Position numbers and translations under genes: made by a program. The notes under the pieces were generated by a model. It saw only the letters and a program-made list of their open reading frames with translations, made no database searches and had not been told where the DNA came from. DNA of 36,954 nucleotides from assembly GCA_002684935.1 (NCBI GenBank), contig NYWC01000113.1, positions 1 through 36,954 on the forward strand, written 5' to 3'. Numbering within the stretch: position 1 is the stretch's first letter; every line of letters starts with the position of its first letter. Source of the stretch: Gammaproteobacteria bacterium. Lineage in GTDB: Bacteria > Pseudomonadota > Gammaproteobacteria > Pseudomonadales > Pseudohongiellaceae. Below are positions 1 through 36,485 of the stretch, piece after piece.

Positions 1-707
1 TGGCTGCAAGCTGGTCAGAGAAGGCTTACAACCAGAAGAATAAGGACGCCATAAAGATAGAAAACAAGATCACAGGAGCCACGGCTTTTGTAATCAAGCG
101 CAAAAGCATAGATGTTATTGCTTTTCGAGGTACTGAGAAAAAGCTAAACGACATCATAACTGACCTGACTGCTATCCCGGTTCCGTATGCCGGAAGGATG
201 TGCCACGCAGGTTTCGTTCTACAACACGCTTCTATCTGGAAAGAGATCAAGAAGCACATTGACCCAAAAAAGCGAACGATGTTTACAGGCCACAGTCTAG
301 GAGGTGCGCTCGCAGAGATGTCTGCCTCCAAGATGAACGGCAAGCACGACAATATCAATCTCATCACATTCGGTAAGCCGAACACGTTTTTTAAAGGCTT
401 TAAGAGGCCGATGAAGCTCGACAATCAGATATCCTGCGTAAACGGCAGTGATATGGTTGCACGAGTCCCACGGCTGCTCTACGGGCCTTCTAAGTCGCAG
501 ACAATGCTATACTTTAGCAATACAGGCCCAGACTATATAAATCCCAGCAAGGACACTAGAAGAGCTGACAGAGGCGGCGTGGCGGATAGAGTCGCTGACC
601 ACAGCATGAACGATTACAAGAAAAGGCTAAAAGAGTATCTTGATTCTCAAGAGAAGGTAAAGCCTATAAACCAAGAAGCTGCTAGGCAACTGGAGAAAAT
701 GAAATGA
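1..707 (+). CDS. Class-3 lipase/esterase, 5'-truncated by the window edge (full copy at 34268..35002)
   Basis: In frame with the full copy. Carries the GHSLGG nucleophile elbow, the GSDMVARVP Asp motif and the ADHSMNDY His motif. Confidence 0.7.
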   Translation, partial: AASWSEKAYNQKNKDAIKIENKITGATAFVIKRKSIDVIAFRGTEKKLNDIITDLTAIPVPYAGRMCHAGFVLQHASIWKEIKKHIDPKKRTMFTGHSLGGALAEMSASKMNGKHDNINLITFGKPNTFFKGFKRPMKLDNQISCVNGSDMVARVPRLLYGPSKSQTMLYFSNTGPDYINPSKDTRRADRGGVADRVADHSMNDYKKRLKEYLDSQEKVKPINQEAARQLEKMK

Positions 708-907
708 GACTGATCGGTTTATTGTTTGTTTTTACGTTATCAAGCTGCACATCTGTTGAACAAGTTATTGCTAACAAAGAAATATACTGCTCTTCCTTTT
801 ACAAAGGTGTTCGGGCAGTGGGCAGAGGAGCGCTTTCTGCTACGGCTGGCGTTATTGTTCCTGACGTTTGCGACACAATTGACACTATTGTGGAAACTGT
901 CGAATGA
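704..907 (+). CDS. Small lipoprotein (o-spanin or exclusion-lipoprotein candidate)
   Basis: MRLIGLLFVFTLSSC is a signal peptide plus lipobox L-S-S-C. Its start overlaps the lipase stop as ATGA. The mature part is about 52 aa with 2 further Cys. Confidence 0.6.
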   Translation: MRLIGLLFVFTLSSCTSVEQVIANKEIYCSSFYKGVRAVGRGALSATAGVIVPDVCDTIDTIVETVE

Positions 908-1371
908 AATTAGGCGGCTTGCTAAAGTCCCTTGCTCCGACTATAGCTAGTGCTGCAGGCGGTCCGATGGCAGGAATGGCTGTAAAGATGGCTGCATCTA
1001 AACTAGGCTTGCCTGAAACTGCAACTGCTAATGAAATCGAGGATTTAATAGAGCGCGAACCTGACAAAGCGGTTCTTGTAAAACAAGCAGATCAAGATTT
1101 TAAAACAAAGATCCGAGAAATGGAGATAGACCTTGAGTCATTTAAGACTGAGGTTGAGGACAGGAAGGATGCTAGGACTAAGTTTGCAAGCGATGTTACG
1201 CCTAAAGTCTTTTGCATTCTTGCTCTTATTTTGTACGGAGCTTATGTAATGACCGTGACTATTCTGCCTCATGATCAAAATGATGAGACCATAATCTCAC
1301 TCGTGCTGGGCCAGCTATCAGGAATACTGGGAACCTGCGCGGCGTTCTTCTATGGAGGCTCTCAGAAGTGA
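904..1371 (+). CDS. Putative holin (amphipathic/charged N-terminal half, two C-terminal TMDs)
   Basis: Hydrophobic segments VFCILALILYGAYVMTVTIL and IISLVLGQLSGILGTCAAFFYG. Sits directly upstream of the lysozyme, with an ATGA overlap upstream and a GTGA overlap downstream. Confidence 0.5.
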   Translation: MKLGGLLKSLAPTIASAAGGPMAGMAVKMAASKLGLPETATANEIEDLIEREPDKAVLVKQADQDFKTKIREMEIDLESFKTEVEDRKDARTKFASDVTPKVFCILALILYGAYVMTVTILPHDQNDETIISLVLGQLSGILGTCAAFFYGGSQK

Positions 1372-1799
1372 ATAAGATGGATAAGCTAATTGAACAACTA
1401 AAGCGCCACGAGGGCGTAGAGACTCACGCTTACAAATGCTCAAGCGGTAAGCTGACTATTGGCGTTGGTAGAAATATTGATCCAGAGGGCGGCATAGGGC
1501 TGGCAATGGAAGAGATAGAATACCTGCTGTCCAATGACATCCTTCGATGTATAAAAGAGCTTAGCGCTGAGTATCCGTGGTTTGGTCAACTAGATGAAAC
1601 TCGTCAGGAGGCAATCATCAATATCTTCCTGAATCTGGGTGCGACAAGGTTCCGGCTTTTTAAGCGAGCATTAGCCGCGATGGAAGAGGGTAATTACGAT
1701 GAGGCTAGCACTGAGTTTCTTGATAGCCGATGGGCAAAGCAGGTAGGCGGTAGAGCGTTAGAGCTTACCGATATCATAAGGTCAGGCGAGTATGTATGA
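1368..1799 (+). CDS. Endolysin, T4/P22-type lysozyme (GH24)
   Basis: LKRHEGVETHAYKCSSGKLTIGVGRNI matches the GH24 EG...AY.D..G..TIGxG signature, with Cys at the usual Asp position. GGAGG lies 10 nt upstream of the GTG start. Confidence 0.85.
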   Translation: MNKMDKLIEQLKRHEGVETHAYKCSSGKLTIGVGRNIDPEGGIGLAMEEIEYLLSNDILRCIKELSAEYPWFGQLDETRQEAIINIFLNLGATRFRLFKRALAAMEEGNYDEASTEFLDSRWAKQVGGRALELTDIIRSGEYV

Positions 1800-2190
1800 T
1801 CCTTATATTTACGTTTGTGAGATAGTGAAGGTTGTTGATGGAGACACTATTGATGTTAATGTTGATTTGGGTTGGTCTGTTAGTGTGCGTAAGCAGCGCA
1901 TTCGTTTGTATGGTATTGACGCTCCCGAGTCTCGCACTAGAGATTTGGAAGAAAAACAATTCGGCAAAGCCTCTAAGAAGTTTGTCAAAGACTTTCTGAA
2001 CAGCGATCACATACTTCTCAAGACGAGAGAGAAAGGCAAGTACGGCAGATATTTAGGTGATTTCTGCGTAGATGATAAATGGCTCTGCGATGAGATGATA
2101 CAAGCTCACCACGCTGTCCCATATTACGGGCAGAACAAAGCTGATATAGCAGCCGCACACATCCGCAACAGAGCCTTAGTGAAGCTCTGA
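1792..2190 (+). CDS. Staphylococcal-nuclease-like (SNase/thermonuclease fold) nuclease
   Basis: VVDGDTIDV ... RIRLYGIDAPE ... GKYGRYLGD are the classic SNase motifs. Overlaps the lysozyme stop by 8 nt. Confidence 0.75.
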   Translation: MYDPYIYVCEIVKVVDGDTIDVNVDLGWSVSVRKQRIRLYGIDAPESRTRDLEEKQFGKASKKFVKDFLNSDHILLKTREKGKYGRYLGDFCVDDKWLCDEMIQAHHAVPYYGQNKADIAAAHIRNRALVKL

Positions 2191-3288: not shown

Positions 3289-3297
3289 TTGAGTCTC

Positions 3298-6271: not shown

Positions 6272-6294
6272 TTATAAAAACCGGAGAAAAACGA

Positions 6295-25241: not shown

Positions 25242-27365
25242 ATGGCTCCCCAAACGAAGACATTAATAGCAGATACAAGTCAGGCTCCTGTTGTTACTAG
25301 CGCTCCTGCGCCTCTAAGAGAGATAGGCGAGCCTCAAAGAAGTCTTGTAGCTGACATACCTCTTACGCCCGAGCAGAAATCTGCAAGAGAACTGTACCCT
25401 ACAAGAGTGGGCGAGGTGCTTCCTGAAAGTGGAGTTGTCGCTCGCACAGGACTGGGTGCGCTTAGTGCTTTAACATTTGATCCAAACGAATTCGCGCAGA
25501 TACTAAAGGTTGCTGATCCTAGAATACAGGTAAGCACAGGGCCAAGAGGCGGTGTTTACATTAATCACCCTGAGAATCCTCAGACCTATGTTGTTAATAA
25601 GCCGGGTTTAAGCTTAGGAGATGTTCCTCAAACAATAGCAGCAATTACTGCGGCAACTCCTGCTGGTTTTGGTAGAACTTTGTTGACCAGAGCGGCATTA
25701 GAAGCGGCAACGCAAGCTGCAATAGAATTAGCCCAAAGTAAAGCTGGTGGCGAGTTTAATGTCGGAGAGGTAGCAATGGCTCCGATGTTTAGCGTTGCTT
25801 CAGATTTGCCCGGAGTGGTCTCTGCGGGAAGACAAGAATCCGCAATGAGAGGTCAGGTAGCCGGAACGCTTGAAGAGGAAGCGGCTCCTGAAATATCTCG
25901 CGTAGCAAGAGAGGCAACAACTGGGCGGGCTCCGCAAGCTGCTGAGCGTATGGTTGATGTTGTTCGACCTGATCCTGTTAGGGCTAGGGCTGTTGAGGAG
26001 TTAGGATTAGAAGAAGTCACTCCAGCAAGGATGGTTTCTCAAAATCCTCAATATATTCAGGTTGAACAGGCTCTGGCTCAGATTCCCGGCTCAGCAATGG
26101 CTAATTCGGAGAAGCAGTTTATAGACCAACTATCCGCTAGGGCTGGAAACTTTATAGATGACTTTGGAGGAAGCCGGGATTTAATCACCGTAGATGATCG
26201 CATCAAGAAAGAAATGAGCGACACAATGGATGGGCTGAGAACTCAGTCTGATGCTCTTTACGCAAAGATTAGCGCAACAATTGACCCTAGAACTAGAATA
26301 AGTAATTTGCGTCCACTTAGGGACGCGCTTAGGTCAAAGGCAATAGATGCTGGCGGTGTAAAAAATTTATCTCAACCAGAGCAGCAATTATTTAGAGAAG
26401 TGCAAAGATCAATGTCAGCAACAGGTAGAGCTGGTCAGATGACTTACACTCGACTTGATGAACTTAGGAAGAAAATAGGAGAGCAATACGGCAACGCGTC
26501 GAGAGGTATGTTTGCTGGAGATGCCGCATCGTTTCAGCTTGGTAGATTGTATGACGCTCTTACAGAGGCGCAGGATCAGGCTCTTAGAGACATTGACCCA
26601 TCTATGTCTCAGGTTTGGCAAACAGCAAAAGGTCTTGTTGCTGAAAGAAAAGGTCTTGAAGAGATAGCCAAGAATGTTGCTGGCAGGAATATGGAGAGGA
26701 ATATTGTTCCTCAACTAACCAGAGCTATGAATCAGTTATCTCAGGGAAACAGTCAATTGTTCAAGCAGGTTATAGAAGCGGTCCCAGAAGGTATGAGACA
26801 AGAAGCTGTAGTAACTGCTCTTGGTGGTATTTTTACCCGTGGAGGCAGAACGAACGTGGAATTATCTCCCGGTCAATTTGCTGCTTGGTGGAGTAAAATT
26901 AAGAGAGACACTGGCGCTAGGGATTTGCTTTTTAGAAATCTTCCTTCCGGCGGCGCAAAGTATCTCAATAACTTAGCGTCTATATCAAAGGCTTATGCAG
27001 ATGCAGCGGCGTCTGCTCCCAGAACTGGTATAACTAACGCAATGGAAATGATGAATAACGACAATGGATTCATCAGCAAGTTTTTTGGAGAAATACCTAT
27101 AGCTGGCAAGTGGGTAAAATGGGCTTTGGAGTCTGCTCCAGAAGATACCCTTAAAGCCGCGAGTCAAATGATGGGAGATCCAACATTTAAAAGAATTATC
27201 GTTAGATCTGCAAAAGGAGAGCCCACAGATAGAGCTGAGGCTAGCTTTATAAAAAGCAAGGTATTTAATAACTGGGCAAACACTGTTCCAGCCAATATTA
27301 AAGAAAGAGCATTAGCCGTAGGTGTGGCTAATTACTTTTTGAACAGTACAAGCGGTGATGAATAA
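25242..27365 (+). CDS. Putative ejection/internal virion protein (707 aa)
   Basis: Long ORF directly upstream of the fibre gene, with TAATG coupling downstream. Confidence 0.45.
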
Positions 27366-30300
27366 TGGCTAGATTCGGCGAGATAAACGCACAATACTTT
27401 GATGACGCTGGCGATCCTCTAAGCAGCGGTAAGATATATTTCTACGAGACAGGTACGACTACTCTCAAGGATACCTTCAGCGACATCAACCAGACTATTG
27501 CTAACACCAATCCGGTCATTCTGAGCGCGGCTGGTAGGCAACCAAACATATTCTTCAGCGGTACTGCTAAGGCGATACTGGTAGACAAGAACGATGTGCA
27601 GATACTGGTCCGTGACCCTATAGGTCAGACAGCTAGTGTATTTGGTGACGGTTGGGTAGCTACGAAGATATACAGTGCTGATGCTGTGGTATTGGGTAGC
27701 GATGGTCAATACTACCGATCTCTCGCCGCAGGCAACCAGAACAACGATCCTACGTCTACGTCAGGATACTGGACGCTTCTCTACTCGGTAGAATGGAACG
27801 CCGGGATAACCTATCAAACTGGCGCAGTTGTTACTTACAACAATCTCCAGTATCAGAGTCTGCAGAACAGTAATTTAAACAACAATCCCGCCAGCGTTAC
27901 GGCATACTGGGCAAGCATAGCCTTTGCGTGGTTATCTACTCGCACCTACGCTATCCACGAGAATGTGGTAGGCACAGATGGCATCTTGTACACCAGTTTG
28001 CAAAACAGCAACACGGGTAACGTCCCAGCCAGCTCTGGCAGTCACTGGGTAGGTACGTCAGCGGCAGCAGCGGCGAGTGCTACGGCGGCGGCAAGCTCAG
28101 CGACAGCAGCGGCTACCTCTGCAACGAATGCGGCTACTTCTGCAACCAATGCTGGAAACAGTGCAACAGCGGCAGCTTCAAGTGCAACCAGTGCTGCCTC
28201 AAGTGCAACTACCGCTACTACAAAGGCTAGCGAAGCAGCAACGTCTGCTACAACAGCCACTACAAAAGCTGCAGAGGCATCAACATCTGCCTCAAATGCC
28301 GCAACCTCGGCAACTAACGCGGGCAACTCCGCAACTGCTGCGGCCAGCTCAGCTACTGCGGCTGCAACTTCAGAGACCAATGCCGGGAACTCGGCAACGG
28401 CTGCTGCAACCTCTGCGACTAACGCAGCAAGCAGTGCTACAGCAGCGGCTTCAAGTGCAACCACAGCAACAACTAAGGCTAGCGAGGCGGCAACCAGCGC
28501 TACTAATGCAGCTACGTCAGAAACTAATGCAGGCAACTCTGCTACAGCGGCAGCGACTTCAGCAACCAATGCAGCGACAAGTGCTACAGCAGCGGCAGGA
28601 AGTGCTACTTCGGCTGCTTCGTCAGCCACAGATGCGGCTAATAAATACGATGAATTTGATGATAGGTATCTAGGCGCTAAGTCGAGTGATCCAACAGTAG
28701 ACAACGATGGCAATGCGCTAGTTACTGGTGCGATTTATTTCAATACGTCTTCCAATGTGATGAAAGTATACGGAGGCTCTTCTTGGGCAAACGTAGCACC
28801 TACTGCAACAAGCATTACTTTATCTCAGGTGTCTGATGTCACAGCTACGGCAGCAGAGGTAAACGTATTAGATGGCATTCCTGCTGGTCTTACAGCTACA
28901 GAGTTGGGCTATGTGGATGGTGTGACCAGTAGTATACAAACACAGTTAAACAATATTTCTGTGACCGCTGGCACTCAAACCAAGACATACTCCGCAGGTG
29001 AAACATCTACTATTACCTTGTCGAGTAATGTGCTGTCTCCTGTCGTTGGAGTAACTAAAGAAGTGGCTCAGACAGGTGTAAGCAATAACGCTTGGGATGT
29101 AAATTCATCCTCAGAGAACTACACGAGATATAACACTGCTACTGCGACTACTTTGACACCTTCTGCTGTTGGTAATGGTACATTTACACTTGGGTCAGGG
29201 TCGTTTAGTTCTGCGGATGTTGGGAAAACAATTGTGGGTAATGGCGGAGTGGCAGTTCTTACCGCAACAAGTGGAGCCTATGTAACATCAACAAATTTCA
29301 CAAACACAAACGCAATAGCTTCAGGCTCTTGGCAAATGTATGCAATGGTATTTAACACAACGGACGGTGACTTAGAGCTAAGTGCTTATAGCGATACTTA
29401 TAATTTTAGTGCTCAAACACAACTTTATAATCCCACTTTTTATCAAGGCTCAGGCAGTGAAAGTGATTTTACAAGACCCGTAGGAATTCACTGGAATACT
29501 GCGGGTACTTATTTTACGACTATAGATAGTAATGGTGACAAATTATACACATGGGCAGCTAATGGTGCTTATGATGGCTCATCTTTTAGTTTAGATAACT
29601 CTCATAGTGTTAGCAGCCAGACAGGATCACCAACAGGGTTTTGCTTTCTTTACAATGGAGGTTCTTACAATAAATTATTTGTTGTTAGTGGAAGTACTAT
29701 TTTTTCATACAGTCTTACTGTCGCACAAAGAGTAAATGGTGGTACGTCGTATGATAATGTAAGCAAAGCAAGTATGTCTGATGTAACTGGTGTTCTAGTG
29801 ACTAATGATGGTACGCAAGTGTATTGTTGTGCTGATGATGGTGATATTTATCATTACACCATGAGTACTGCTAATGACCTATCAACAGCTTCAAACGCTG
29901 CTACTGGTGAGCAATTCCATTTGCCTAGTTACAGCAGTGCTACATGGAAAGATATGCAATATCAAAATAGTGGCACTGAGTTGTGGCTAATAGATGGCAG
30001 TAATTATATTTATAAATATTCATTATCTACAGCCTACCGTATAGAAACAGCAAGTTTTGTTGCTCGCTACTCCTTTACAGACCCACAAACTACAGCAGGA
30101 TTCGCAATAGAAAATAATGGCTCAAGATTCTATACAGTAGGCGATTATGGAAGATTATATGGATACAGTATTGGTGCAGGAGTAAGCATACCAACTGGCT
30201 ATCACGCAGCCCACACTATAACCTCCACAGACTCAACCTACTGGACTGACATCAACTCAATGACAGCAGATGAAGCTGCTGGTAATGGTGCTATCTACTA

Positions 30301-30754
30301 CTGCGTATCTACTGATGACCGAACAACTTGGAAGGTTGCCAAAGGTACTGATGGTGAAAGAAACATTGCTAAGAATAATTCAGGAACTTGGCAGTATAAC
30401 TCTAACGCGACTTATGGTTCAGAGACTTGGACTAACGCAACAGTCAATGCAGAGCTTTATGCCATACAGGAGGCGATGGGAACAGCAGCGAATCAAATGA
30501 ACAAAACCCAGCTAGACGCTATCCCTGATGCTAATCACTTTACGTTAGCTAACGATCTTGATCTAGCAATCATATTCAACATGAGCAGCGGCTCAACAAT
30601 TCCAAGCAGTGACGGTGTAGCTATCAACTATGATGCCAATGTCTTAAATCAAGGTGCAATACTAGGCACTGACTACACCTACGATGCGCCTGCGCAGAAC
30701 AAGGTTAGGATAACGTCAACGAGCGCGGCTAACTTAAAGGTTAGGATTGTTTAA
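27365..30754 (+). CDS. Tail fibre: conserved N-terminal anchor, 3 CBM5/12-like repeats, ~27 Ser/Ala/Thr heptads, beta-propeller-like distal domain
   Basis: Motifs [21 protein letters not shown], 3x W..Y..G..V...G..Y......N..P.....W, SATxAxx heptads, [28 protein letters not shown], and five Y-rich blade-like repeats. Confidence 0.8.
28058..28642 (+). repeat. 21-nt (heptad) tandem-repeat tract inside the tail fibre gene
   Basis: About 27 consecutive SAT(N/A/S/T)A(A/G/T)(S/T/N) heptads. All frames are open on both strands here, hence track ORFs 28042..28713(-) and 28077..28673(+). Confidence 0.9.
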
Positions 30755-30763
30755 TTTTGTGCG

Positions 30764-31657
30764 ATGAAAAAGTACGTTGCGGTTATAGTGGCCAGCTTTT
30801 TAGCTTTCCCTGTCTTTGGACAGGACACTACGACTAACATAAACACGACTGCAACTAACACTGCAACGTCTACCGCTACGTCTACAAATACCAATAATAA
30901 TAACAACGTAAACAGTAGCACGACTAACTATACTGGTACGTCTACGAACACTAATAATAACAACAACGTAAACACGAACACTAATACCAACAATACAGAT
31001 TACACTGGTACGTCTACTAACGTAAACACAAACACCAACACAAACACGACAGATTACACCGGGCTAATAACTAATTTAAACACTAACACCAACACGAATA
31101 GCACCACTAATAACAGCACTTCTGTTAGCAGCGCAACAAACGTAAATCAAAATACAAATAACAGTACCAGCGTGAATACATCGTTATCTAACAGCACAAG
31201 TTTTCAGACTACAAACTCTGTGTCGGACATTAACGCAATAAATCAAAACAGTAACACCAACACCAACAGCTCTATCAGTAATTCAACCCAGCGAGTTACT
31301 CAGAAAGTGGAATCACCGCCTCCATCAGCTATTGCGCCGTCAATAGGCAGCTCTTACAGCCAAGACCTTTGCACCACAGGTATATCAGGCGCTGTCCAAA
31401 CCCAAATACTTGGATTCTCTACCGGGAAGTCTGTTCGTGATCAAAACTGCGAAAGAATTAAATTGGGTAAGACCTTATATGATATGGGTATGCGTGTTGC
31501 AGCGGTAAGCCTCATGTGCCAAGACTACCGCGTGTGGTCTAGCATGATGTACGCAGGTACACCCTGTCCGTATGAAGGCAAGATAGGTGACGAGGCGAAA
31601 CTCTTGTGGGAGGCCAACCCAGACAAGATACCTGAGCCTGACAGGAGAGTGCGGTGA
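30764..31657 (+). CDS. Sec-exported Asn/Thr-rich low-complexity protein with a 4-Cys C-terminal domain
   Basis: Signal peptide MKKYVAVIVASFLAFPVFG-QD. TN-rich repeats with 3x (N/D)YTG(T/L) units. C-terminal ~110 aa are non-repetitive with 4 Cys. Confidence 0.7.
   Translation: MKKYVAVIVASFLAFPVFGQDTTTNINTTATNTATSTATSTNTNNNNNVNSSTTNYTGTSTNTNNNNNVNTNTNTNNTDYTGTSTNVNTNTNTNTTDYTGLITNLNTNTNTNSTTNNSTSVSSATNVNQNTNNSTSVNTSLSNSTSFQTTNSVSDINAINQNSNTNTNSSISNSTQRVTQKVESPPPSAIAPSIGSSYSQDLCTTGISGAVQTQILGFSTGKSVRDQNCERIKLGKTLYDMGMRVAAVSLMCQDYRVWSSMMYAGTPCPYEGKIGDEAKLLWEANPDKIPEPDRRVR
30827..31313 (+). repeat. Low-complexity ACN/AAY (Thr/Asn) tract
   Basis: Runs of aacaccaacac / aataataacaac read directly from the sequence. 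Confidence 0.85.
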
Positions 31658-33558
31658 AAAGGTTTGTACTGCTTTGCCTGCTTCCCGTGTTTGCGTCTGC
31701 CGCTGATCTCAGCCCAACAGGTATGACACAAGTCCTGAACGGTGTGGACGATAGTGCTTATCACGTTGAGCTTGGGCATACCTTCCCTCATCTGGATAAA
31801 GTGTTTACTGATGCGTGGATGTCCACCAACGGTTTTATTCTCCTCTGGTCGCCTACGAATAACCTTGGTCAGCAAACCCTGCCGACAGGTGGTCACTGCT
31901 GTGACGGATATAACTTTGGAGCGGGTACGCCTAATTATCTAGATAACAGAGTAGGGCAGTTTAGCTATATGCTTGCTCCATTATGGACAGATTTAGATGA
32001 CACTAACGTGTTTGATGATGACGGTTACTATTATTCTACTAATACAGAGCGGTCTAGTTTTCTTTGGTACAAGGTCAGGGAATACAACAATCCTCTGGCA
32101 ATGAATACCTTTCAGTTAAACATAGACAAGTCTGGAGGGTTTGAATACATCTACGATGACGTATTTATTAACAACCATGAGGTGTTTATAGGCTGGACAG
32201 GAGACACCGCAGCCGATCCGTTTTGGCACACTCAGCAGTTTTATGGAAATAAATTCACTATGAGTAGCACCTACGCCAACGCAACAGGAGCGCAGCTTAT
32301 ATCTGCTTATGGTGGTGATTTGTCTACTAATAGCTACAGCAATGGAAACTTTGGGCTTGTAGGTAGGCCAGATTGTACAAACCCTGCAAACGATTCAACT
32401 TGTGATGGCTACTGGGACGCGGTGGCGCAGTCTAGTGTGACCGATCAGTACACAGATAATGTGTTTGGCGATGAAGTAGAAGACTACTTCTTTACTGATA
32501 ATCAAAGTCGTCAAGGACAGCCACAGACTACACCGCCTCCACAGCCTTATCAAAACACTTCTCAAGAGCGCGAGATGTTCGGGCTTGCTCCCAGAGCAGA
32601 TGAGCCACCAACTGGAGAGCCTGAGCGTCCTGAGCAACAACGTCAGCAACAACAGCAGCAACCTGAGCCGATTGTAAGAACTGAACCTGAGCGCGTTGAA
32701 AGACCTGTAGAGGTAGCAGAAGAGCCAGTGCAGGTGGTTAGGGAATCAAGGCCCGAGCCACGCCCTGACCGTGCTGTAGTCCGTCAAGAACCCGTGGAAG
32801 TCGAGCGGGTGCAAAGAGAAGAGCGTGTAGAGATTGTTCGTGAGCCAGAACCCGAGAAAGAGGCAGAAAAAGTAATAGAGCGTGAGGTAATACGCCCTGC
32901 TGTCGATGTCGTGGGTATAGCTCTTAGCACTGTCGGGCAGTCAGCTTATCGAAATAATTCAGTCAATTCGCAAACACAGATGGTGCTTCAGGATCAGCAA
33001 GAGCTTGAACAGACAACAAGTGTTTTCAGCACCGAGGCTCAGATTACTCAAGTTGTAGCGCAACAAGCCCAGCAGCAGAAGACTAATACAATCACTACAT
33101 CGGAGCTTGCACCGCCAACGCAGATGCAGTTTGAGAATGATTTTAATGACGCGATAGCTACAGGCCAAAGCGTAGGTCAATTCCTGTCAGCACAGCTTCC
33201 AGATTTCAGCAGGTTTGACGTCTCGCCTCCCAGTCAAGATGAGCAACGTACAGTGCAACGGGCTGAGACTCAGATACAGACTATGAGCCAAGCTGATGTA
33301 CAGCAGAGCTTAGATAGTCAGCTAGAGAACTTAGAAGATACTGGCGGTTTTACCGATCAAAGTCTTGCGGTGTTTCTCATATCAAACAATCCAGCTTTCT
33401 CGCAGTACGACAACGTAAATATATCCGACAGACAACAGTTTTACTCGTCCACGCAGCCCTATCCATCGAACAGTATTCGGGCAAATCCATTAGGTGTGCT
33501 GCGCGTGACGGGTAATTCGGGCTATGACGATTTGGTGGATTTACAATGGCAGAGATAG
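31654..33558 (+). CDS. Sec-exported protein: NIDO-like N-terminal domain, Pro/Glu/Arg-rich (TonB-like) spacer, Gln-rich C-terminal region
   Basis: Signal peptide MKRFVLLCLLPVFASA-AD. LAPLWTDLDD...NTFQLNIDKSGGFEYIYDDV resembles the APFWxD...NTFQ signature. Spacer reads EPERPEQQRQQQQQQPEPIVRTEPERVERPVEVAEEP.... Confidence 0.7.
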   Translation: MKRFVLLCLLPVFASAADLSPTGMTQVLNGVDDSAYHVELGHTFPHLDKVFTDAWMSTNGFILLWSPTNNLGQQTLPTGGHCCDGYNFGAGTPNYLDNRVGQFSYMLAPLWTDLDDTNVFDDDGYYYSTNTERSSFLWYKVREYNNPLAMNTFQLNIDKSGGFEYIYDDVFINNHEVFIGWTGDTAADPFWHTQQFYGNKFTMSSTYANATGAQLISAYGGDLSTNSYSNGNFGLVGRPDCTNPANDSTCDGYWDAVAQSSVTDQYTDNVFGDEVEDYFFTDNQSRQGQPQTTPPPQPYQNTSQEREMFGLAPRADEPPTGEPERPEQQRQQQQQQPEPIVRTEPERVERPVEVAEEPVQVVRESRPEPRPDRAVVRQEPVEVERVQREERVEIVREPEPEKEAEKVIEREVIRPAVDVVGIALSTVGQSAYRNNSVNSQTQMVLQDQQELEQTTSVFSTEAQITQVVAQQAQQQKTNTITTSELAPPTQMQFENDFNDAIATGQSVGQFLSAQLPDFSRFDVSPPSQDEQRTVQRAETQIQTMSQADVQQSLDSQLENLEDTGGFTDQSLAVFLISNNPAFSQYDNVNISDRQQFYSSTQPYPSNSIRANPLGVLRVTGNSGYDDLVDLQWQR

Positions 33559-34049
33559 AAGTTGGCGAGGTAAAGCTTTCTGGCGGTAAGTTACTGCTTG
33601 TTATACCGTTTTTAGGTAGTATTGGCGCAGCGATGTGGGGCGGCTTCGAGTTGTATCAGCGTTTGTTAGATGCCGAAGAAGCAGTAACTGCCTACGTCTC
33701 ACCTGACTTTAGCTCGTATGATGAAGAATTAGCCGTACTAAGCACTAAATTAGATGCTGCTGAAGTCTTAATAGCAGCCGTTGAGCGAGCTTTAGATCAG
33801 GATATAGTTGAGCTAATGAACAACATTGACCGCCTACAGGTCGATATAGACGCCACAGAGCGCATTGCTAGAGGGACGGATGATTCTGTTGTCTTAGCCA
33901 CGAGAGAGCTTAGAGATGACGTGTACGCTTTAGAAGAGCGTGTAAACGACAGTCTTAGAGATGTAGATAACGAACTACGAGCAATGCGTGATGACCTTGA
34001 GGAACGTATCCAGCGCATACTGGATAACCCTTTAAACGTGGAAGAGTAA
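33546..34049 (+). CDS. Bitopic membrane protein with a coiled-coil ectodomain (i-spanin-like architecture)
   Basis: N-terminal TMD LLLVIPFLGSIGAAMWGGF followed by about 130 aa of charged helical sequence. Confidence 0.5.
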   Translation: MAEIEVGEVKLSGGKLLLVIPFLGSIGAAMWGGFELYQRLLDAEEAVTAYVSPDFSSYDEELAVLSTKLDAAEVLIAAVERALDQDIVELMNNIDRLQVDIDATERIARGTDDSVVLATRELRDDVYALEERVNDSLRDVDNELRAMRDDLEERIQRILDNPLNVEE

Positions 34050-34271
34050 ATGGAATTTCAAACTGGATTTAACGTATTTTTAGCAATCATTAGCTTTGGT
34101 GGCGGTTGGCTAGTTAATCGTGTTTTTGTCTTGCTTGATAGAATCGACGCTGACATGAAGCAAATACCTGAGAAGTATGTTGCCAAAGATGATTACCGCG
34201 AGGACATCCGTGAGATCAAAGAAACACTAGGCGCTATTTTTAAGAAACTAGATAACAAGGCCGAGAAATGA
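34050..34271 (+). CDS. Small single-TMD membrane protein (holin/antiholin candidate)
   Basis: FNVFLAIISFGGGWLVNRVFVLL followed by a highly charged C-terminus. 73 aa. Confidence 0.5.
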   Translation: MEFQTGFNVFLAIISFGGGWLVNRVFVLLDRIDADMKQIPEKYVAKDDYREDIREIKETLGAIFKKLDNKAEK

Positions 34272-35002
34272 AACTTGATCCTGTTTTACTAAATATGGCT
34301 GCAAGCTGGTCAGAGAAGGCTTACAACCAGAAGAATAAGGACGCCATAAAGATAGAAAACAAGATCACAGGAGCCACGGCTTTTGTAATCAAGCGCAAAA
34401 GCATAGATGTTATTGCTTTTCGAGGTACTGAGAAAAAGCTAAACGACATCATAACTGACCTGACTGCTATCCCGGTTCCGTATGCCGGAAGGATGTGCCA
34501 CGCAGGTTTCGTTCTACAACACGCTTCTATCTGGAAAGAGATCAAGAAGCACATTGACCCAAAAAAGCGAACGATGTTTACAGGCCACAGTCTAGGAGGT
34601 GCGCTCGCAGAGATGTCTGCCTCCAAGATGAACGGCAAGCACGACAATATCAATCTCATCACATTCGGTAAGCCGAACACGTTTTTTAAAGGCTTTAAGA
34701 GGCCGATGAAGCTCGACAATCAGATATCCTGCGTAAACGGCAGTGATATGGTTGCACGAGTCCCACGGCTGCTCTACGGGCCTTCTAAGTCGCAGACAAT
34801 GCTATACTTTAGCAATACAGGCCCAGACTATATAAATCCCAGCAAGGACACTAGAAGAGCTGACAGAGGCGGCGTGGCGGATAGAGTCGCTGACCACAGC
34901 ATGAACGATTACAAGAAAAGGCTAAAAGAGTATCTTGATTCTCAAGAGAAGGTAAAGCCTATAAACCAAGAAGCTGCTAGGCAACTGGAGAAAATGAAAT
35001 GA
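34268..35002 (+). CDS. Class-3 lipase/esterase (full-length copy, 244 aa, no signal peptide)
   Basis: AFRGT, HAGF, GHSLGGALA, GSDMVARVP and ADHSMNDY give a complete Ser/Asp/His set in the Lipase_3 order. Confidence 0.75.
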   Translation: MKLDPVLLNMAASWSEKAYNQKNKDAIKIENKITGATAFVIKRKSIDVIAFRGTEKKLNDIITDLTAIPVPYAGRMCHAGFVLQHASIWKEIKKHIDPKKRTMFTGHSLGGALAEMSASKMNGKHDNINLITFGKPNTFFKGFKRPMKLDNQISCVNGSDMVARVPRLLYGPSKSQTMLYFSNTGPDYINPSKDTRRADRGGVADRVADHSMNDYKKRLKEYLDSQEKVKPINQEAARQLEKMK

Positions 35003-35202
35003 GACTGATCGGTTTATTGTTTGTTTTTACGTTATCAAGCTGCACATCTGTTGAACAAGTTATTGCTAACAAAGAAATATACTGCTCTTCCTTTTACAAA
35101 GGTGTTCGGGCAGTGGGCAGAGGAGCGCTTTCTGCTACGGCTGGCGTTATTGTTCCTGACGTTTGCGACACAATTGACACTATTGTGGAAACTGTCGAAT
35201 GA
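34999..35202 (+). CDS. Small lipoprotein (second copy of 704..907)
   Basis: Identical to the first copy. Confidence 0.6.
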   Translation: MRLIGLLFVFTLSSCTSVEQVIANKEIYCSSFYKGVRAVGRGALSATAGVIVPDVCDTIDTIVETVE

Positions 35203-35666
35203 AATTAGGCGGCTTGCTAAAGTCCCTTGCTCCGACTATAGCTAGTGCTGCAGGCGGTCCGATGGCAGGAATGGCTGTAAAGATGGCTGCATCTAAACTA
35301 GGCTTGCCTGAAACTGCAACTGCTAATGAAATCGAGGATTTAATAGAGCGCGAACCTGACAAAGCGGTTCTTGTAAAACAAGCAGATCAAGATTTTAAAA
35401 CAAAGATCCGAGAAATGGAGATAGACCTTGAGTCATTTAAGACTGAGGTTGAGGACAGGAAGGATGCTAGGACTAAGTTTGCAAGCGATGTTACGCCTAA
35501 AGTCTTTTGCATTCTTGCTCTTATTTTGTACGGAGCTTATGTAATGACCGTGACTATTCTGCCTCATGATCAAAATGATGAGACCATAATCTCACTCGTG
35601 CTGGGCCAGCTATCAGGAATACTGGGAACCTGCGCGGCGTTCTTCTATGGAGGCTCTCAGAAGTGA
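35199..35666 (+). CDS. Putative holin (second copy of 904..1371)
   Basis: Identical to the first copy. Confidence 0.5.
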   Translation: MKLGGLLKSLAPTIASAAGGPMAGMAVKMAASKLGLPETATANEIEDLIEREPDKAVLVKQADQDFKTKIREMEIDLESFKTEVEDRKDARTKFASDVTPKVFCILALILYGAYVMTVTILPHDQNDETIISLVLGQLSGILGTCAAFFYGGSQK

Positions 35667-36094
35667 ATAAGATGGATAAGCTAATTGAACAACTAAAGCG
35701 CCACGAGGGCGTAGAGACTCACGCTTACAAATGCTCAAGCGGTAAGCTGACTATTGGCGTTGGTAGAAATATTGATCCAGAGGGCGGCATAGGGCTGGCA
35801 ATGGAAGAGATAGAATACCTGCTGTCCAATGACATCCTTCGATGTATAAAAGAGCTTAGCGCTGAGTATCCGTGGTTTGGTCAACTAGATGAAACTCGTC
35901 AGGAGGCAATCATCAATATCTTCCTGAATCTGGGTGCGACAAGGTTCCGGCTTTTTAAGCGAGCATTAGCCGCGATGGAAGAGGGCAATTACGATGAGGC
36001 TAGCACTGAGTTTCTTGATAGCCGATGGGCAAAGCAGGTAGGCGGTAGAGCGTTAGAGCTTACCGATATCATAAGGTCAGGCGAGTATGTATGA
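35663..36094 (+). CDS. GH24 lysozyme endolysin (second copy; carries the single synonymous difference at 35986)
   Basis: GGC vs GGT Gly codon. The protein is identical. Confidence 0.85.
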   Translation: MNKMDKLIEQLKRHEGVETHAYKCSSGKLTIGVGRNIDPEGGIGLAMEEIEYLLSNDILRCIKELSAEYPWFGQLDETRQEAIINIFLNLGATRFRLFKRALAAMEEGNYDEASTEFLDSRWAKQVGGRALELTDIIRSGEYV

Positions 36095-36485
36095 TCCTTA
36101 TATTTACGTTTGTGAGATAGTGAAGGTTGTTGATGGAGACACTATTGATGTTAATGTTGATTTGGGTTGGTCTGTTAGTGTGCGTAAGCAGCGCATTCGT
36201 TTGTATGGTATTGACGCTCCCGAGTCTCGCACTAGAGATTTGGAAGAAAAACAATTCGGCAAAGCCTCTAAGAAGTTTGTCAAAGACTTTCTGAACAGCG
36301 ATCACATACTTCTCAAGACGAGAGAGAAAGGCAAGTACGGCAGATATTTAGGTGATTTCTGCGTAGATGATAAATGGCTCTGCGATGAGATGATACAAGC
36401 TCACCACGCTGTCCCATATTACGGGCAGAACAAAGCTGATATAGCAGCCGCACACATCCGCAACAGAGCCTTAGTGAAGCTCTGA
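36087..36485 (+). CDS. SNase-like nuclease (second copy)
   Basis: Identical to 1792..2190. Confidence 0.75.
   Translation: MYDPYIYVCEIVKVVDGDTIDVNVDLGWSVSVRKQRIRLYGIDAPESRTRDLEEKQFGKASKKFVKDFLNSDHILLKTREKGKYGRYLGDFCVDDKWLCDEMIQAHHAVPYYGQNKADIAAAHIRNRALVKL

What the first reader, a model, noticed from the sequence alone, without database searches (positions are those of the whole stretch)
30764..36485. Oversized nine-gene, translationally coupled envelope/lysis cassette downstream of the tail fibre
- From 30764 to 36485 nine plus-strand genes are chained by start/stop overlaps or near-abutment: GTGA at 31654, a 13-nt overlap at 33546, TAAATG at 34050, ATGA at 34268, 34999 and 35199, GTGA at 35663, and an 8-nt overlap at 36087.
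- The chain encodes two signal-peptide proteins with extreme low complexity, a bitopic coiled-coil membrane protein, a 73-aa single-TMD protein, a cytoplasmic class-3 lipase, a lipobox lipoprotein, a two-TMD holin-like protein, a GH24 lysozyme and an SNase-like nuclease.
- Canonical Gram-negative lysis cassettes have holin, endolysin and a spanin pair (3-4 genes). This one is about 5.7 kb, roughly one sixth of the genome.
- The spanin-like parts (33546 i-spanin-like, 34999 lipoprotein) are separated by two other genes.
- The arrangement suggests a multi-layer envelope-attack or envelope-remodelling system whose exported components have no assigned role.
Basis: partly seen in the sequence, partly recalled or inferred. 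Interest (0 to 1): 0.75.

Follow-up and report, generated by a model that had tools for sequence, protein, structure and literature searches.

The report
Composite phage lysis region, novel trio
The nine chained genes at the end of this marine phage genome are real. They are a patchwork of an ordinary cell-bursting core plus add-ons, and the notable add-on is an uncharacterised three-gene cell-envelope module that is very common in ocean phages, including those infecting SAR11.

Summary
Nine plus-strand genes (30764-36485) are chained exactly as described. They make up 16.7 % of a 34,295-bp genome, because the window repeats its first 2,659 bp at its end.

It contains:
- g7-g8, an ordinary core: a holin-like protein plus a GH24 endolysin.
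- g5-g6, a cytoplasmic class-3 lipase and a small lipoprotein.
- g9, an SNase nuclease found only occasionally in related loci.
- g1-g2-g3 (with g4 optional), an obligately linked trio: an exported 4-Cys domain protein, an exported protein with a long charged spacer, and a membrane-anchored coiled-coil protein ending in an invariant NPL.

The trio kept its order in 55/55 and 49/49 related loci. It occurs in hundreds of viral contigs and in cultured Pelagibacter and Roseobacter phages. It has no Pfam, PDB or fold match.

g3 never pairs with a lipoprotein, so the proposed g3+g6 spanin pair is not supported.

Genes near the trio are enriched for cell-wall hydrolases (14/47 loci) and lipases. This suggests, but does not prove, that the trio spans the periplasm and acts at the outer-membrane step of lysis.

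The parts
30764..31657 (+). g1 (297 aa). Signal peptide, then an N/T/S-rich disordered linker (aa ~20-185), then a conserved ~100-aa C-terminal domain with four invariant Cys. Motifs: PPPSA.APS, DLC, D.NCER.KL, DMGM.VAAV, C.D.RV, AG.PCP. First gene of the conserved trio.
   Evidence: signal peptide, composition. (50-60 % identity to hypothetical proteins of 6 Pelagibacter phages, a Roseobacter phage and others). (468 IMG/VR contigs). (>5,327 clusters). (904 clusters at 50 % identity). (invariant columns). (AF2 pLDDT ~90 for a three-helix core). (no PDB match; only uncharacterised viral relatives). PHROG 20531, unknown function.
31654..33558 (+). g2 (634 aa). Signal peptide (…VFASA|AD), a variable N-terminal beta-sandwich domain (aa ~20-280), a P/E/R/Q-rich spacer (aa ~285-420) and a conserved helical C-terminal domain ending LVDLQWQR. 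Second gene of the trio.
   Evidence: (177 homologues, all unnamed, no Pfam). (conserved columns). (AF2: only aa ~20-175 reach pLDDT 60-86; spacer disordered). (no structural or profile match). (signal peptide, charged spacer and C-terminal [ML][VI][DEN]xQ[YW] motif retained in divergent loci). (mosaic breakpoint at ~33109, at the start of the conserved C-domain).
33546..34049 (+). g3 (167 aa). Bitopic membrane protein: TMD at aa ~16-38 (…WGGFELY), an acidic coiled coil (net charge -23) and an invariant C-terminal N-P-L motif. Third gene of the trio. i-spanin-like in architecture only.
   Evidence: alignment A3: invariant G33, N161, P162, L163. (1e-21 to HTVC115P gp49). (always found with g1 and g2). 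(only coiled-coil-level PHROG hits, including Rz-like spanin in 4/24 members). (no partner lipoprotein in most loci).
34050..34271 (+). g4 (73 aa). One N-terminal TMD and a ~45-aa charged tail, no Cys. Optional fourth member that follows g3 in a subset of loci. Candidate holin accessory or antiholin.
   Evidence: (PHROG 462 at 6e-8; that family is labelled 'lipoprotein', but g4 has no lipobox). (present in 19 loci, directly after g3). (architectural analogue: Lcc6 of Shewanella phage LambdaSo).
34268..35002 (+). g5 (244 aa). Class-3 lipase/esterase with the GHSLG nucleophile motif and no export signal.
   Evidence: Lipase_3, 1e-16, above cut-off. (PHROG 21992, esterase/lipase). (GHSLG at position 106). 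(Lipase_3 in 8/47 non-redundant trio loci; lipase family in 43 loci, 42 of them 0-1 kb downstream of g3 and L200 just upstream of g1; all lack signal peptides).
34999..35202 (+). g6 (67 aa). Lipoprotein precursor (lipobox LSS|C, Thr at +2) with two further Cys. The only credible lipoprotein gene in the genome. Always sits between the lipase and g7.
   Evidence: lipobox scans of the region and of the whole window. (family in 35 loci, always directly after the lipase). No Pfam, PHROG or NCBIfam match.
35199..35666 (+). g7 (155 aa). Holin-like membrane protein: a ~100-aa amphipathic/charged N-terminal part and two C-terminal TMDs, immediately upstream of the endolysin.
   Evidence: (PHROG 1544, unknown function). 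(a homologue in Vibrio phage 1.275.O forms a two-gene unit with an M15 DD-peptidase). (occupies the position held by GTA_holin_3TM in other trio loci). (no detectable homology to GTA_holin_3TM).
35663..36094 (+). g8 (143 aa). GH24 (T4-lysozyme-type) endolysin with the E15-8aa-C24-5aa-T30 catalytic motif. No SAR or signal sequence, so it would need a holin to reach the wall.
   Evidence: Phage_lysozyme, 1.2e-10. (PHROG 7, endolysin)..
36087..36485 (+). g9 (132 aa). Staphylococcal-nuclease-fold endonuclease with Ca-site and catalytic motifs intact. Last gene of the operon and not an envelope factor.
   Evidence: SNase, 3.7e-13. (PHROG 452, endonuclease, 2e-35). (weak match to calcium-activated nuclease EcnA). 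(motifs). (present in only a few related loci).
198..2190 (+). Second copy of the 3' part of g5 and of g6, g7, g8 and g9 (704-907, 904-1371, 1368-1799, 1792-2190). It arises from the 2,659-bp terminal duplication of the window (1-2659 = 34296-36954).
   Evidence: 1 mismatch, at 1691 versus 35986.
27365..30754 (+). Tail fibre gene directly upstream (context). In the nearest relative, its C-terminal part is exchanged as one mosaic block together with g1 and the N-domain and spacer of g2.
   Evidence: PHROG 38058, tail fibre..

Best explanation
The nine genes form the 3' end of the late operon of a 34.3-kb P22-like marine podovirus. They are a composite of units with separate evolutionary histories.

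**Shown**
- g7-g8 is a conventional lysis core: a holin-like membrane protein plus a soluble GH24 endolysin.
- g5-g6 is a cytoplasmic class-3 lipase with a small lipoprotein.
- g9 is an SNase-type nuclease appended at the end.
- g1-g2-g3 is an obligately linked, translationally coupled three-gene module. It is extremely widespread in aquatic phages and has no known relative.
- g4 is an optional rider on the trio.

**Inferred: what the trio builds**
- g3 is anchored in the inner membrane, with its acidic coiled coil in the periplasm.
- g1 and g2 are exported by Sec.
- The three assemble through their conserved ends: g3's invariant C-terminal NPL, g2's conserved C-terminal domain and [ML][VI]DxQ[YW] tail, and g1's invariant disulfide-bonded helical domain.
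- g2's long charged spacer and variable beta-sandwich N-domain reach the wall and outer-membrane side in a host-specific way.

**Inferred: how lysis would run**
1. g7 permeabilises the inner membrane.
2. This releases g8, which cuts peptidoglycan, and g5, which attacks lipid esters.
3. The pre-assembled trio then takes part in breaching the outer layers, the job spanins do in other phages.
4. The lipase and lipoprotein act as a second, lipolytic aid.
5. g9 would become active on the calcium influx at lysis and degrade host DNA.

**Confidence by step**
- The modular decomposition is about 0.9 likely.
- A lysis or outer-membrane role for the trio is about 0.4 likely.
For: **Anatomy**
- establish the nine genes and their features.

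**The trio is one unit**
- g1, g2 and g3 lie in that order in 55/55 loci found through g1.
- Their overlaps are conserved in most of these loci.
- 49/49 loci found through g3 have g1 upstream.
- The layout persists in 29-55 % GC contigs and in cultured Pelagibacter, Roseobacter and freshwater phages.

**Conserved termini**
-.

**Export signals**
- Signal peptides are present in the g1 and g2 family members inspected across divergent loci.

**Link to lysis**
- A holin-family gene lies within 2.1 kb downstream of g3 in 21/35 loci, with GH24 or M15 endolysins.
- In 47 non-redundant loci, the commonest Pfam families within 3 kb downstream are peptidoglycan hydrolases (14 loci) and Lipase_3 (8 loci).
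- The lipase lies 0-1 kb from the trio in 43 loci, even where g6 and g7 are absent.

**No canonical spanin**
- g6 is the only lipoprotein ORF in the window genome.
- There is none near g3 in ~25 loci.
- There is no credible one in the complete HTVC202P genome.

**g7 behaves as a holin**
- It pairs with a different endolysin class in Vibrio phage 1.275.O.

**Position**
- The closest cultured relative has a compact lysis block at the same place in its genome.
Against: **No direct functional evidence exists for any of g1-g4, g6 or g7.**

**The trio is not always next to lysis genes**
- In L008 and L062 tail and structural genes follow it.
- In L071 and L078 it ends the operon.
- In HTVC202P the M15 endolysin is ~20 kb away.
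- Being near lysis genes may only reflect a position at the end of the late module, where unrelated accessory genes also accumulate.

**Weak points in the spanin analogy**
- g3's resemblance to i-spanins is architectural. PHROG hits are at coiled-coil noise level.
- g3's membrane orientation is inferred, not computed by a dedicated predictor.
- The module is far more elaborate than any known spanin. One variant class adds three more exported proteins.
- g1's extreme conservation across hosts is not explained by a simple bridging role.

**Model quality**
- The AF2 model of g2 is poor (pLDDT 44).
- No complex prediction could be run.
Confidence: 0.42

Rival explanations
1. All nine genes form one co-evolved, multi-layer envelope-attack cassette, in which g3 (i-spanin-like) and g6 (lipoprotein) are a spanin pair separated by two genes.
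For: - All nine genes are translationally chained.
- g3 has i-spanin architecture, and g6 is the only lipoprotein in the genome.
- The full g1-g9 order is found in the nearest relative L034. g1-g8 is found in several close relatives.
Against: - Only near relatives share the full set.
- g3 occurs in hundreds of contigs, always with g1 and g2. It usually occurs without any g6 homologue or any lipobox ORF in or after g3.
- g6 is found only sandwiched between the lipase and g7.
- g8 is replaced by M15, GH19 or Hydrolase_2 enzymes elsewhere, and g9 is rare.
- Mature g6 has a single proline and predicted hydrophobic/helical stretches. By my reading of the literature this is unlike typical proline-rich o-spanins; it was not tested here.
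- Tight coupling is the rule across the whole late operon.
Confidence: 0.08
2. The trio is not a lysis device. It is a late-expressed envelope-remodelling or exclusion module that changes the dying or infected cell's surface. For example it could mask or tether receptors so that progeny are not lost on debris, or block superinfection. It merely sits at the end of the structural operon, where accessory genes collect.
For: - g2's N-terminal domain and spacer and g1's linker are exchanged as one mosaic block with the receptor-binding end of the tail fibre. From 33109 onward the sequence is ~95 % identical to L034.
- In several loci the trio lies among tail-fibre-like genes.
- In about a third of loci no lysis gene is nearby, and in HTVC202P the endolysin is 20 kb away.
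- Some g2 N-domains, in HTVC202P and Baldr, look like carbohydrate-binding modules when read by eye.
Against: - The co-transfer with the tail fibre may be simple linkage.
- Proteins exported only to the periplasm cannot mask surface receptors unless they are exported further.
- No match to any PADLOC defence or exclusion model.
- All 42 genome-collection hits are metagenome bins rather than isolate genomes. So there is no evidence of prophage carriage, which superinfection-exclusion genes usually show.
- Neighbouring genes are enriched for wall hydrolases and lipases.
Confidence: 0.25
3. g1, g2 and g3 are virion proteins, either tail or fibre accessories or ejection proteins.
For: - Their position is immediately after the tail fibre gene.
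- Weak PHROG hits of g3-family members to tape-measure and tail proteins.
- Low-complexity regions are common in fibres.
Against: - g1 and g2 carry cleavable-type Sec signal peptides in the family members inspected. g1 has a four-Cys domain suited to the oxidising periplasm, and g3 has a conserved TMD. Tailed-phage virions assemble in the cytoplasm.
- There are no structural homologues among solved or predicted viral structures apart from uncharacterised family members.
- The PHROG hits are coiled-coil noise.
- The gene upstream of g1 is often not a fibre, and 17/133 loci have no same-strand upstream gene.
Confidence: 0.05
4. The trio is the envelope-side partner of the lipase. It recruits, activates or positions the class-3 lipase at a membrane, so the functional unit is a lipolytic membrane-disruption system rather than a fusogenic spanin analogue.
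For: - Lipase_3 is, together with lysozyme, the commonest family next to the trio (8/47 non-redundant loci).
- The lipase family lies 0-1 kb from the trio in 43 loci at 27-70 % identity. This includes loci without g6 or g7, and one where it lies upstream of g1.
- There is a precedent, from my knowledge of the literature and untested here, for small lipoproteins activating an outer-membrane phospholipase to release colicins, and for the mycobacteriophage LysB esterase acting on the outer layer.
Against: - Roughly 70 % of trio loci have no lipase nearby, so the trio must work without it.
- The lipase lacks any export signal, whereas the trio is periplasmic.
- No interaction evidence exists.
Confidence: 0.15

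Closest known systems
Two-component spanins (lambda Rz/Rz1 type i-spanin + o-spanin)
   Same: - g3 has the i-spanin layout: short N-terminus, one TMD and a ~130-aa coiled-coil domain with a conserved C-terminal contact motif.
- The genes sit in the late operon, often beside holin and endolysin genes.
- The phage lacks any other spanin candidate.
   Different: - There is no lipoprotein partner adjacent to, overlapping or embedded in g3. The constant partners are two Sec-exported non-lipoproteins, g1 and g2.
- There are three or more components instead of two.
- No sequence homology to Rz-like families appears beyond coiled-coil noise.
Canonical holin-endolysin cassette of P22-like and other podoviruses (for example gp21-gp24 of Pseudoalteromonas phage vB_PspP-H6/1)
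   Same: - g7-g8 is a membrane protein followed by a soluble muralytic enzyme at the end of the late operon, after the tail fibre or tailspike.
- H6/1 gp24 shares g7's layout: a soluble N-terminal part and C-terminal TMDs.
   Different: - The window has seven additional genes (5.7 kb against ~1.6 kb).
- g7 belongs to no described holin family.
- The enzyme is GH24 rather than M15.
TonB/TolA-type periplasm-spanning proteins
   Same: g2 has a long Pro/Glu/Arg/Gln-rich spacer of the kind that lets TonB and TolA cross the periplasm. One homologue is even annotated 'transport protein tonB'.
   Different: - g2 has a cleavable-type signal peptide rather than an N-terminal membrane anchor.
- It has no TonB_C or TolA domain and no Pfam hit at all.
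- The membrane anchor is supplied by a separate protein, g3.
Non-spanin lysis accessories: phiKT gp28 'disruptin' and Shewanella LambdaSo Lcc6
   Same: - Both are precedents that phages without recognisable spanins use other proteins for the last lysis step (bioRxiv 10.1101/515445).
- Both also show that small single-TMD proteins can be essential at the holin step (bioRxiv 10.1101/2024.01.23.576932).
- g4 has Lcc6's layout: a TMD plus a ~45-aa charged tail.
   Different: - Disruptin is a single cationic peptide, whereas the trio proteins are large and acidic.
- No homology between g4 and Lcc6 was tested, because the Lcc6 sequence was not at hand.
Mycobacteriophage LysB esterase; colicin-release lipoprotein + OMPLA
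   Same: In each, a lipolytic enzyme is deployed at lysis to breach an outer lipid layer. In the colicin case a small lipoprotein switches on a phospholipase. g5-g6 has the same cast: an esterase/lipase and a small lipoprotein next to a holin.
   Different: - g5 is a class-3 lipase, not a cutinase-like LysB or the beta-barrel OMPLA.
- The resemblance is recalled from the literature and was not tested here.
- The substrate is unknown.

Membership tests
Two-component spanin | i-spanin: type II inner-membrane protein with an N-terminal TMD and a periplasmic coiled-coil domain | tested here: met
   g3 has a hydrophobic peak at aa 16-34, the rest is acidic coiled coil, and the layout is conserved across 24 diverse members. 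Orientation is inferred only.
Two-component spanin | o-spanin: a lipobox lipoprotein gene embedded in, overlapping or immediately following the i-spanin gene | tested here: not met
   The only lipobox ORF (g6) starts 950 nt after g3, with two genes between them. About 25 g3-bearing loci have no lipobox ORF in g3 or within 4.5 kb downstream.
Two-component spanin | The two components co-occur as a pair across relatives | tested here: not met
   g3 co-occurs with g1 and g2 (55/55 and 49/49). g6 co-occurs with the lipase and g7.
Two-component spanin | Sequence homology to described spanin families | tested here: inconclusive
   4/24 g3-family members touch PHROG 739 'Rz-like spanin' (best 7e-5). 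This is the same level as SbcC and tape-measure coiled-coil hits. The window's g3 itself does not hit.
Two-component spanin | Loss gives spherical-cell arrest after endolysin action; the protein fuses or disrupts the outer membrane | not testable with these tools
   Needs genetics and microscopy.
Holin (any described class) | Small membrane protein with at least one TMD, encoded next to the endolysin, whose gene context is conserved with different endolysin types | tested here: met
   g7 has two C-terminal TMDs and lies directly upstream of GH24 g8. A homologue lies directly next to an M15 peptidase in Vibrio phage 1.275.O.
Holin (any described class) | Membership of a curated holin family (for example Pfam GTA_holin_3TM) | tested here: not met
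   No Pfam hit even at E<=10. hhalign of the g7 family against GTA_holin_3TM proteins from related loci gives probability 0.6 %. PHROG 1544 has unknown function.
GH24 / T4-lysozyme-type endolysin | Phage_lysozyme domain above the Pfam cut-off, with the Glu-8aa-Asp/Cys-5aa-Thr catalytic motif | tested here: met
   g8 scores 42.3 bits against a cut-off of 22.3. Motif E15…C24…T30. No N-terminal hydrophobic SAR segment.
Class-3 lipase (Pfam PF01764) | Domain above the gathering score and a GxSxG nucleophile elbow | tested here: met
   g5 scores 61.5 bits against a cut-off of 22. GHSLG at position 106 is conserved in 17/18 homologues down to 27 % identity. The Asp/His of the triad and the substrate were not tested.
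Staphylococcal nuclease (PF00565) | SNase domain above the cut-off, with Ca-binding and catalytic motifs | tested here: met
   g9 scores 50.3 bits against a cut-off of 21. DGDT and RIRLYGIDAPE are present.
TonB/TolA family | N-terminal membrane anchor, Pro-rich spacer and a conserved C-terminal TonB_C/TolA domain | tested here: not met
   g2 has only the spacer. It has a signal peptide instead of an anchor, and no Pfam or NCBIfam domain.
Virion structural/tail accessory proteins | Cytoplasmic protein with structural homologues among virion proteins | tested here: not met
   g1 and g2 carry signal peptides and g3 a TMD. Foldseek against the PDB gave no significant match. Foldseek of the g1 model against BFVD found only uncharacterised family members. 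PDB profile searches found nothing significant. Actual presence in virions was not tested.
Known anti-phage defence / exclusion systems (PADLOC) | Match to a PADLOC model | tested here: not met
   No hits for g1-g8. g9 hits only a generic SNase-containing candidate model.

The most novel reading that the evidence does not exclude
g1-g2-g3 is a previously unrecognised, multi-component, periplasm-spanning machine. It would carry out the outer-membrane step of lysis in a large fraction of marine and freshwater phages, including the SAR11 pelagiphages, for which no spanin equivalent came up in my searches. That would make it a third class of outer-membrane disruptor beside spanins and disruptin. 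Its parts would be an inner-membrane coiled-coil anchor, a TonB-like extended linker protein with a host-specific head, and a universally conserved disulfide-bonded domain that targets an invariant envelope component.
Probability: 0.3. Interest if true: 0.85.

Novelty: new variant of a known kind. Interest (0 to 1): 0.66.

Why it matters
- **Known gap.** Lysis of Gram-negative hosts is thought to need three steps. About 15 % of phages have no recognisable device for the third step, outer-membrane disruption (bioRxiv 10.1101/515445).
- **What this adds.** The trio found here is a concrete, testable candidate for that gap in aquatic phages.
- **Why it is a good candidate.** The three genes are obligately linked. 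The domain family has about 900 clusters at 50 % identity and more than 5,000 at 90 %. It is present in cultured Pelagibacter and Roseobacter phages. It is enriched beside wall hydrolases and lipases. It is unannotated in Pfam, NCBIfam, PHROGs and the PDB.
- **If it has another role.** It is still one of the more abundant uncharacterised phage envelope modules, and its g1 domain is unusually conserved across hosts.
- **Practical corrections.**
  - CRP-207 gp73, annotated 'putative lysozyme', is a g3 homologue.
  - The 'tonB' annotation in MW202481 is a g2 homologue.
- **Secondary lead.** The repeated pairing of the trio with a cytoplasmic class-3 lipase points to lipolytic help in phage egress.

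Tried and rejected
**Annotation searches**
- Pfam, NCBIfam, PHROG and PADLOC scans of all nine proteins and of sub-domains, even at E<=10, gave nothing for g1, g2, g4, g6 or g7. g3 gave only coiled-coil noise.

**Structure**
- AF2 of g2 was too poor (pLDDT 44) for fold assignment. Foldseek against the PDB was meaningless, with a best E-value of 0.39.
- The g1 domain model was confident, but it had zero PDB matches and matched only uncharacterised relatives in BFVD.
- Profile searches of g1 and g2 against PDB sequences found nothing significant.

**g7 as a holin homologue**
- The hypothesis that g7 is a diverged GTA_holin_3TM was rejected by hhalign, with probability 0.6 %.

**False or failed leads**
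- A lysozyme seemed to sit inside the trio in CRP-207. The 'putative lysozyme' is a misannotated g3 homologue.
- A pilin-like extra protein in the variant trio class has no Pfam support.
- A search for prophage copies in isolate genomes, to learn the hosts, returned only metagenome bins with inconsistent taxonomy.
- DNA-level search of the cassette against cultured phages gave only two tiny hits.
- Protein search of g2 against cultured phages found no match, owing to divergence and low complexity.
- A promoter/terminator scan found nothing above chance.
- Literature searches for the module found no description of it. The terms used were pelagiphage+spanin, HTVC115P, disruptin and spanin-less.

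**Spanin scan**
- A scan for canonical o-spanins in the complete HTVC202P and vB_PspP-H6/1 genomes found no credible candidate. This is compatible with the substitute idea but does not prove it.

Full report
**1. The observation**

The nine plus-strand ORFs are at the stated coordinates.

The window is not a simple linear piece. Bases 1-2659 equal 34296-36954 with one mismatch. The genome unit is therefore 34,295 bp, and the last four and a half genes of the finding also appear at 198-2190.

The coupling itself is not special. The whole late operon from about 8.9 kb is joined by similar overlaps. No promoter-like or terminator-like site exceeds chance between 27 and 37 kb.

**2. The genome**

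PHROG matches identify a P22-type portal, Ad3/Hc3 connector proteins, ejection proteins, a scaffold and a coat protein. There is also a minus-strand Erf / exonuclease / NinG / NinB recombination module.

The coat protein is 56 % identical to that of Pseudoalteromonas podovirus vB_PspP-H6/1, and 46 % identical to Sf6, HK620 and APSE. The host is therefore probably a marine gammaproteobacterium. This is an inference.

In H6/1 the tailspike gene is followed by four genes (~1.6 kb), including an M15 endolysin. The position is thus a lysis position, and the window's 5.7-kb version really is expanded.

**3. The recognisable genes**

- **g8** is a GH24 lysozyme with the E-8-C-5-T motif and no SAR or signal segment.
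- **g5** is a class-3 lipase with GHSLG and no export signal.
- **g9** is an SNase-fold nuclease with intact motifs.
- **g6** is the only credible lipoprotein gene in the whole genome.
- **g7** has two C-terminal TMDs. Its homologue in Vibrio phage 1.275.O forms a two-gene unit with an M15 DD-peptidase. In related loci its position is taken by true GTA_holin_3TM proteins. g7 is therefore holin-like by architecture and context. Profile-profile comparison shows no homology to GTA_holin_3TM.
- **g4** is a 73-aa protein with one TMD. It resembles the lysis factor Lcc6 of Shewanella phage LambdaSo in layout only.

**4. The unexpected part: g1-g2-g3**

*g1.* Its C-terminal ~100 residues are 50-60 % identical to hypothetical proteins of six Pelagibacter phages (podo-, sipho- and myoviruses) and a freshwater podovirus. 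They are ~40 % identical to proteins of Roseobacter phage CRP-207 and an uncultured Mediterranean phage, and 30 % identical to a protein of Ralstonia phage RSP15.

In each annotated context I inspected except RSP15, where g1 appears to stand alone, two genes follow:
- First, a gene for an exported protein with a charged spacer.
- Then a gene for a TMD + coiled-coil protein ending in NPL.
- In Baldr a 62-aa TMD gene lies between g1 and the g2-position gene, and in HTVC115P three small genes lie between the g2 and g3 homologues.

CRP-207's 'putative lysozyme' gp73 is in fact such a g3 homologue.

*Linkage of the three genes.*
- In IMG/VR the g1 domain occurs in at least 468 contigs. In all 55 fetched loci with enough sequence the order g1-g2-g3 holds, mostly with the same -4 and -13 overlaps.
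- The reciprocal search with a g3 profile found 546 relatives. 49 of 49 loci with enough upstream DNA contain g1.
- In 42 metagenome-bin contigs of 29-55 % GC, the layout persists wherever enough downstream sequence was present, with one exception (L126). The layout is g1, then ~2 kb, then g3. The middle gene keeps a signal peptide, an E/D/P/K/Q-rich spacer and a C-terminal [ML][VI][DEN]xQ[YW] motif.

*Family sizes and conservation.*
- The g1 family has more than 5,327 clusters at 90 % identity and 904 at 50 %. All members are small proteins with the domain at the C-terminal end.
- g1's four Cys and about 40 other columns are invariant.
- g3 has an invariant G in the TMD region and an invariant terminal N-P-L.

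*No known relative.* None of the three has a Pfam, NCBIfam or informative PHROG match, a PDB sequence-profile match or a fold match. The g1 domain model is confident (pLDDT ~90, three helices). The g2 model is poor apart from an N-terminal beta-sandwich.

**5. How the nine genes break up**

| Unit | Distribution in related loci |
|---|---|
| g1-g2-g3 | Always together |
| g4 | Follows g3 in 19 loci |
| g5 lipase family | In 43 loci, 0-1 kb downstream of g3 in 42 and just upstream of g1 in L200; also with divergent trios lacking g6 and g7; 27-70 % identity; never with a signal peptide |
| g6 | In 35 loci, always right after the lipase; followed by g7 wherever the sequence extends that far |
| g8 | Replaced elsewhere by M15, GH19 or Hydrolase_2 enzymes |
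| g9 | Rare |

The nearest relative, L034, is ~95 % identical at the DNA level from 33109 through g9. Position 33109 is the start of g2's conserved C-domain. The block from the tail-fibre C-terminus through g1 to g2's N-domain and spacer is only ~73 % identical or unalignable. A mosaic boundary therefore runs through g2, and its variable head travels with the host-range end of the fibre.

**6. Is g3 + g6 a spanin?**

g3 has the i-spanin architecture. However, about 25 g3-bearing loci have no lipobox ORF embedded in g3 or within 4.5 kb downstream. g3 is never found without g1, and g6 belongs with the lipase. PHROG hits of g3-family members to 'Rz-like spanin' (4/24, best 7e-5) are no better than their hits to SbcC or tape-measure proteins. 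Membership in the spanin family is therefore not supported. A spanin-like way of working remains possible.

**7. What the trio most likely does**

*Evidence tying it to lysis.*
- Of 35 loci with about 3 kb or more downstream, 21 have a holin-family gene within 2.1 kb, generally followed by an endolysin.
- Among 119 proteins encoded within 3 kb downstream of g3 in 47 non-redundant loci, the commonest Pfam families are peptidoglycan hydrolases (Phage_lysozyme 8, M15_3 2, Hydrolase_2 2, GH19 2) and Lipase_3 (8).
- I estimate, without computing it, that a random 3-kb window in a 40-kb phage genome should contain the single endolysin gene in under 10 % of cases.
- No canonical spanin candidate is visible in the window apart from the atypical g6, in the loci, or in the complete HTVC202P genome.

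*Inferred mechanism.* g3 anchors the complex in the inner membrane. g2's extended spacer crosses the periplasm and its variable head contacts a host-specific wall or outer-membrane feature. g1's invariant disulfide domain binds the conserved tails of the partners, an invariant envelope component, or both. After g7-dependent release of the endolysin and the lipase, the complex contributes to breaching the outer layers.

*Caveats.*
- In L008 and L062 the trio lies among tail genes, and in L071 and L078 it ends the operon.
- In HTVC202P the endolysin is ~20 kb away.
- A variant class adds three more exported proteins of unknown type.
- An end-of-late-operon location is also where unrelated accessory genes gather.

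I rate a lysis or outer-membrane role at about 0.4 and a non-lytic envelope role (exclusion, receptor or debris masking) at about 0.25. A virion role is unlikely (0.05), because of the export signals.

**8. Literature**

Full-text searches found no description of this module. The nearest precedents are two:
- The phiKT 'disruptin', in a phage that lacks spanins. That paper states that ~15 % of phages lack a recognisable spanin (bioRxiv 10.1101/515445).
- The extra lysis factor Lcc6 of LambdaSo (bioRxiv 10.1101/2024.01.23.576932).

**9. Verdict**

It is a composite rather than one nine-gene machine, and the proposed separated spanin pair is not supported.

The real point of interest is the g1-g2-g3 trio. 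It is a very abundant, obligately linked, completely unannotated phage envelope module, and a testable candidate for the missing outer-membrane lysis step in many aquatic phages.

Noticed in passing
window 1-2659 and 34296-36954: The window carries a 2,659-bp terminal direct duplication with a single mismatch (1691 versus 35986, inside g8). The true genome unit is 34,295 bp, which suggests a circular or terminally redundant assembly. An identical g2 protein is on record on a 34,378-bp Tara/JGI contig.
   Followed up: partly
L085 (Roseobacter phage CRP-207, MZ892987.1) 3292-3873; L003 (MW202481.1) 5230-6336: There are two public annotation errors. CRP-207 gp73 'putative lysozyme' is a g3-family TMD/coiled-coil protein ending in DNPL. 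The 'transport protein tonB' of MW202481 is a g2-family protein. The g1 homologue in MW202481 (4851-5357) is not annotated at all.
   Followed up: yes
L095, L098, L101, L102, L110, L113, L115 (e.g. L098 9380-12124); also L181, L192-L195, L198, L201, L202: A variant class of the module has a short g2 (~290 aa) followed by three additional signal-peptide proteins (~165, ~125 and ~135-145 aa) before g3. The 165-aa protein has a pilin-like Cys…Cys pattern (GTV.SKC … GTY.A.V.A.CIA). None has a Pfam match.
   Followed up: partly
L074 10333-10650; L085 3870-4226 (CRP-207 gp72); L092 5222-5569; L108 11619-12062: A small membrane protein recurs next to or inside the trio (between g2 and g3, or just after g3). 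It has an EF-hand-like D.(D/N)GDG.(I/V)..(D/E)E loop, then a charged helix and a TMD. This hints at a calcium-sensing accessory, possibly a holin or antiholin.
   Followed up: no
window 29382-33109 versus L034: A mosaic block comprises the tail-fibre C-terminus, g1 and the N-domain and spacer of g2. It is ~73 % identical or unalignable to the nearest relative, while the flanks are 91-96 % identical. One breakpoint falls inside g2, at the start of its conserved C-terminal domain.
   Followed up: partly
window 36087-36485 (g9): An SNase-fold nuclease without an export signal is translationally coupled to the endolysin at the very end of the lysis operon. Its motifs suggest calcium dependence. 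It might become active only on calcium influx at lysis and clear host DNA; this is speculation. Similar nucleases follow the endolysin in L034, L054 and L067.
   Followed up: partly
L079 7365-8429, L082 7434-8423, L001 4848-5447 (HTVC115P gp54): Some g1 homologues carry an extra C-terminal hydrophobic tail (…GGIGLLLLAL, …AAGGAAALLLLLL, …IIPMVITALAFGVAF) that the window's g1 lacks. It could be a membrane anchor or a sorting signal.
   Followed up: no
L208 (HTVC202P) 29674-30244; L085 (CRP-207) 4228-5227: Runs of very small, extremely basic proteins (for example …KKRRKKSGKKKKKKKST) lie next to the M15 peptidase of HTVC202P and just after the trio of CRP-207. They are reminiscent of cationic 'disruptin'-type peptides, but could equally be DNA-binding proteins.
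   Followed up: no
window 28042-28713 (within tail fibre gene 27365-30754): The tail fibre contains a long Ala/Ser/Thr/Asn-rich repetitive stretch (…[19 protein letters not shown]… repeated). Both strands carry long alternative ORFs there. There is also a weak match to carbohydrate-binding module CBM_5_12 near residue 143.
   Followed up: no
window 34050-34271 (g4): g4 matches PHROG 462, whose label is 'lipoprotein' (6e-8). g4 has no cysteine at all, so the family label cannot apply to this member.
   Followed up: yes
L089-L130 (GTDB genome collection): All 42 'genome' hits to the g1 domain are contigs in metagenome-assembled bins. The bins are labelled as archaea, Actinomycetota, Bacteroidota, cyanobacteria and others. 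These are almost certainly phage contigs mis-binned into MAGs.
   Followed up: partly
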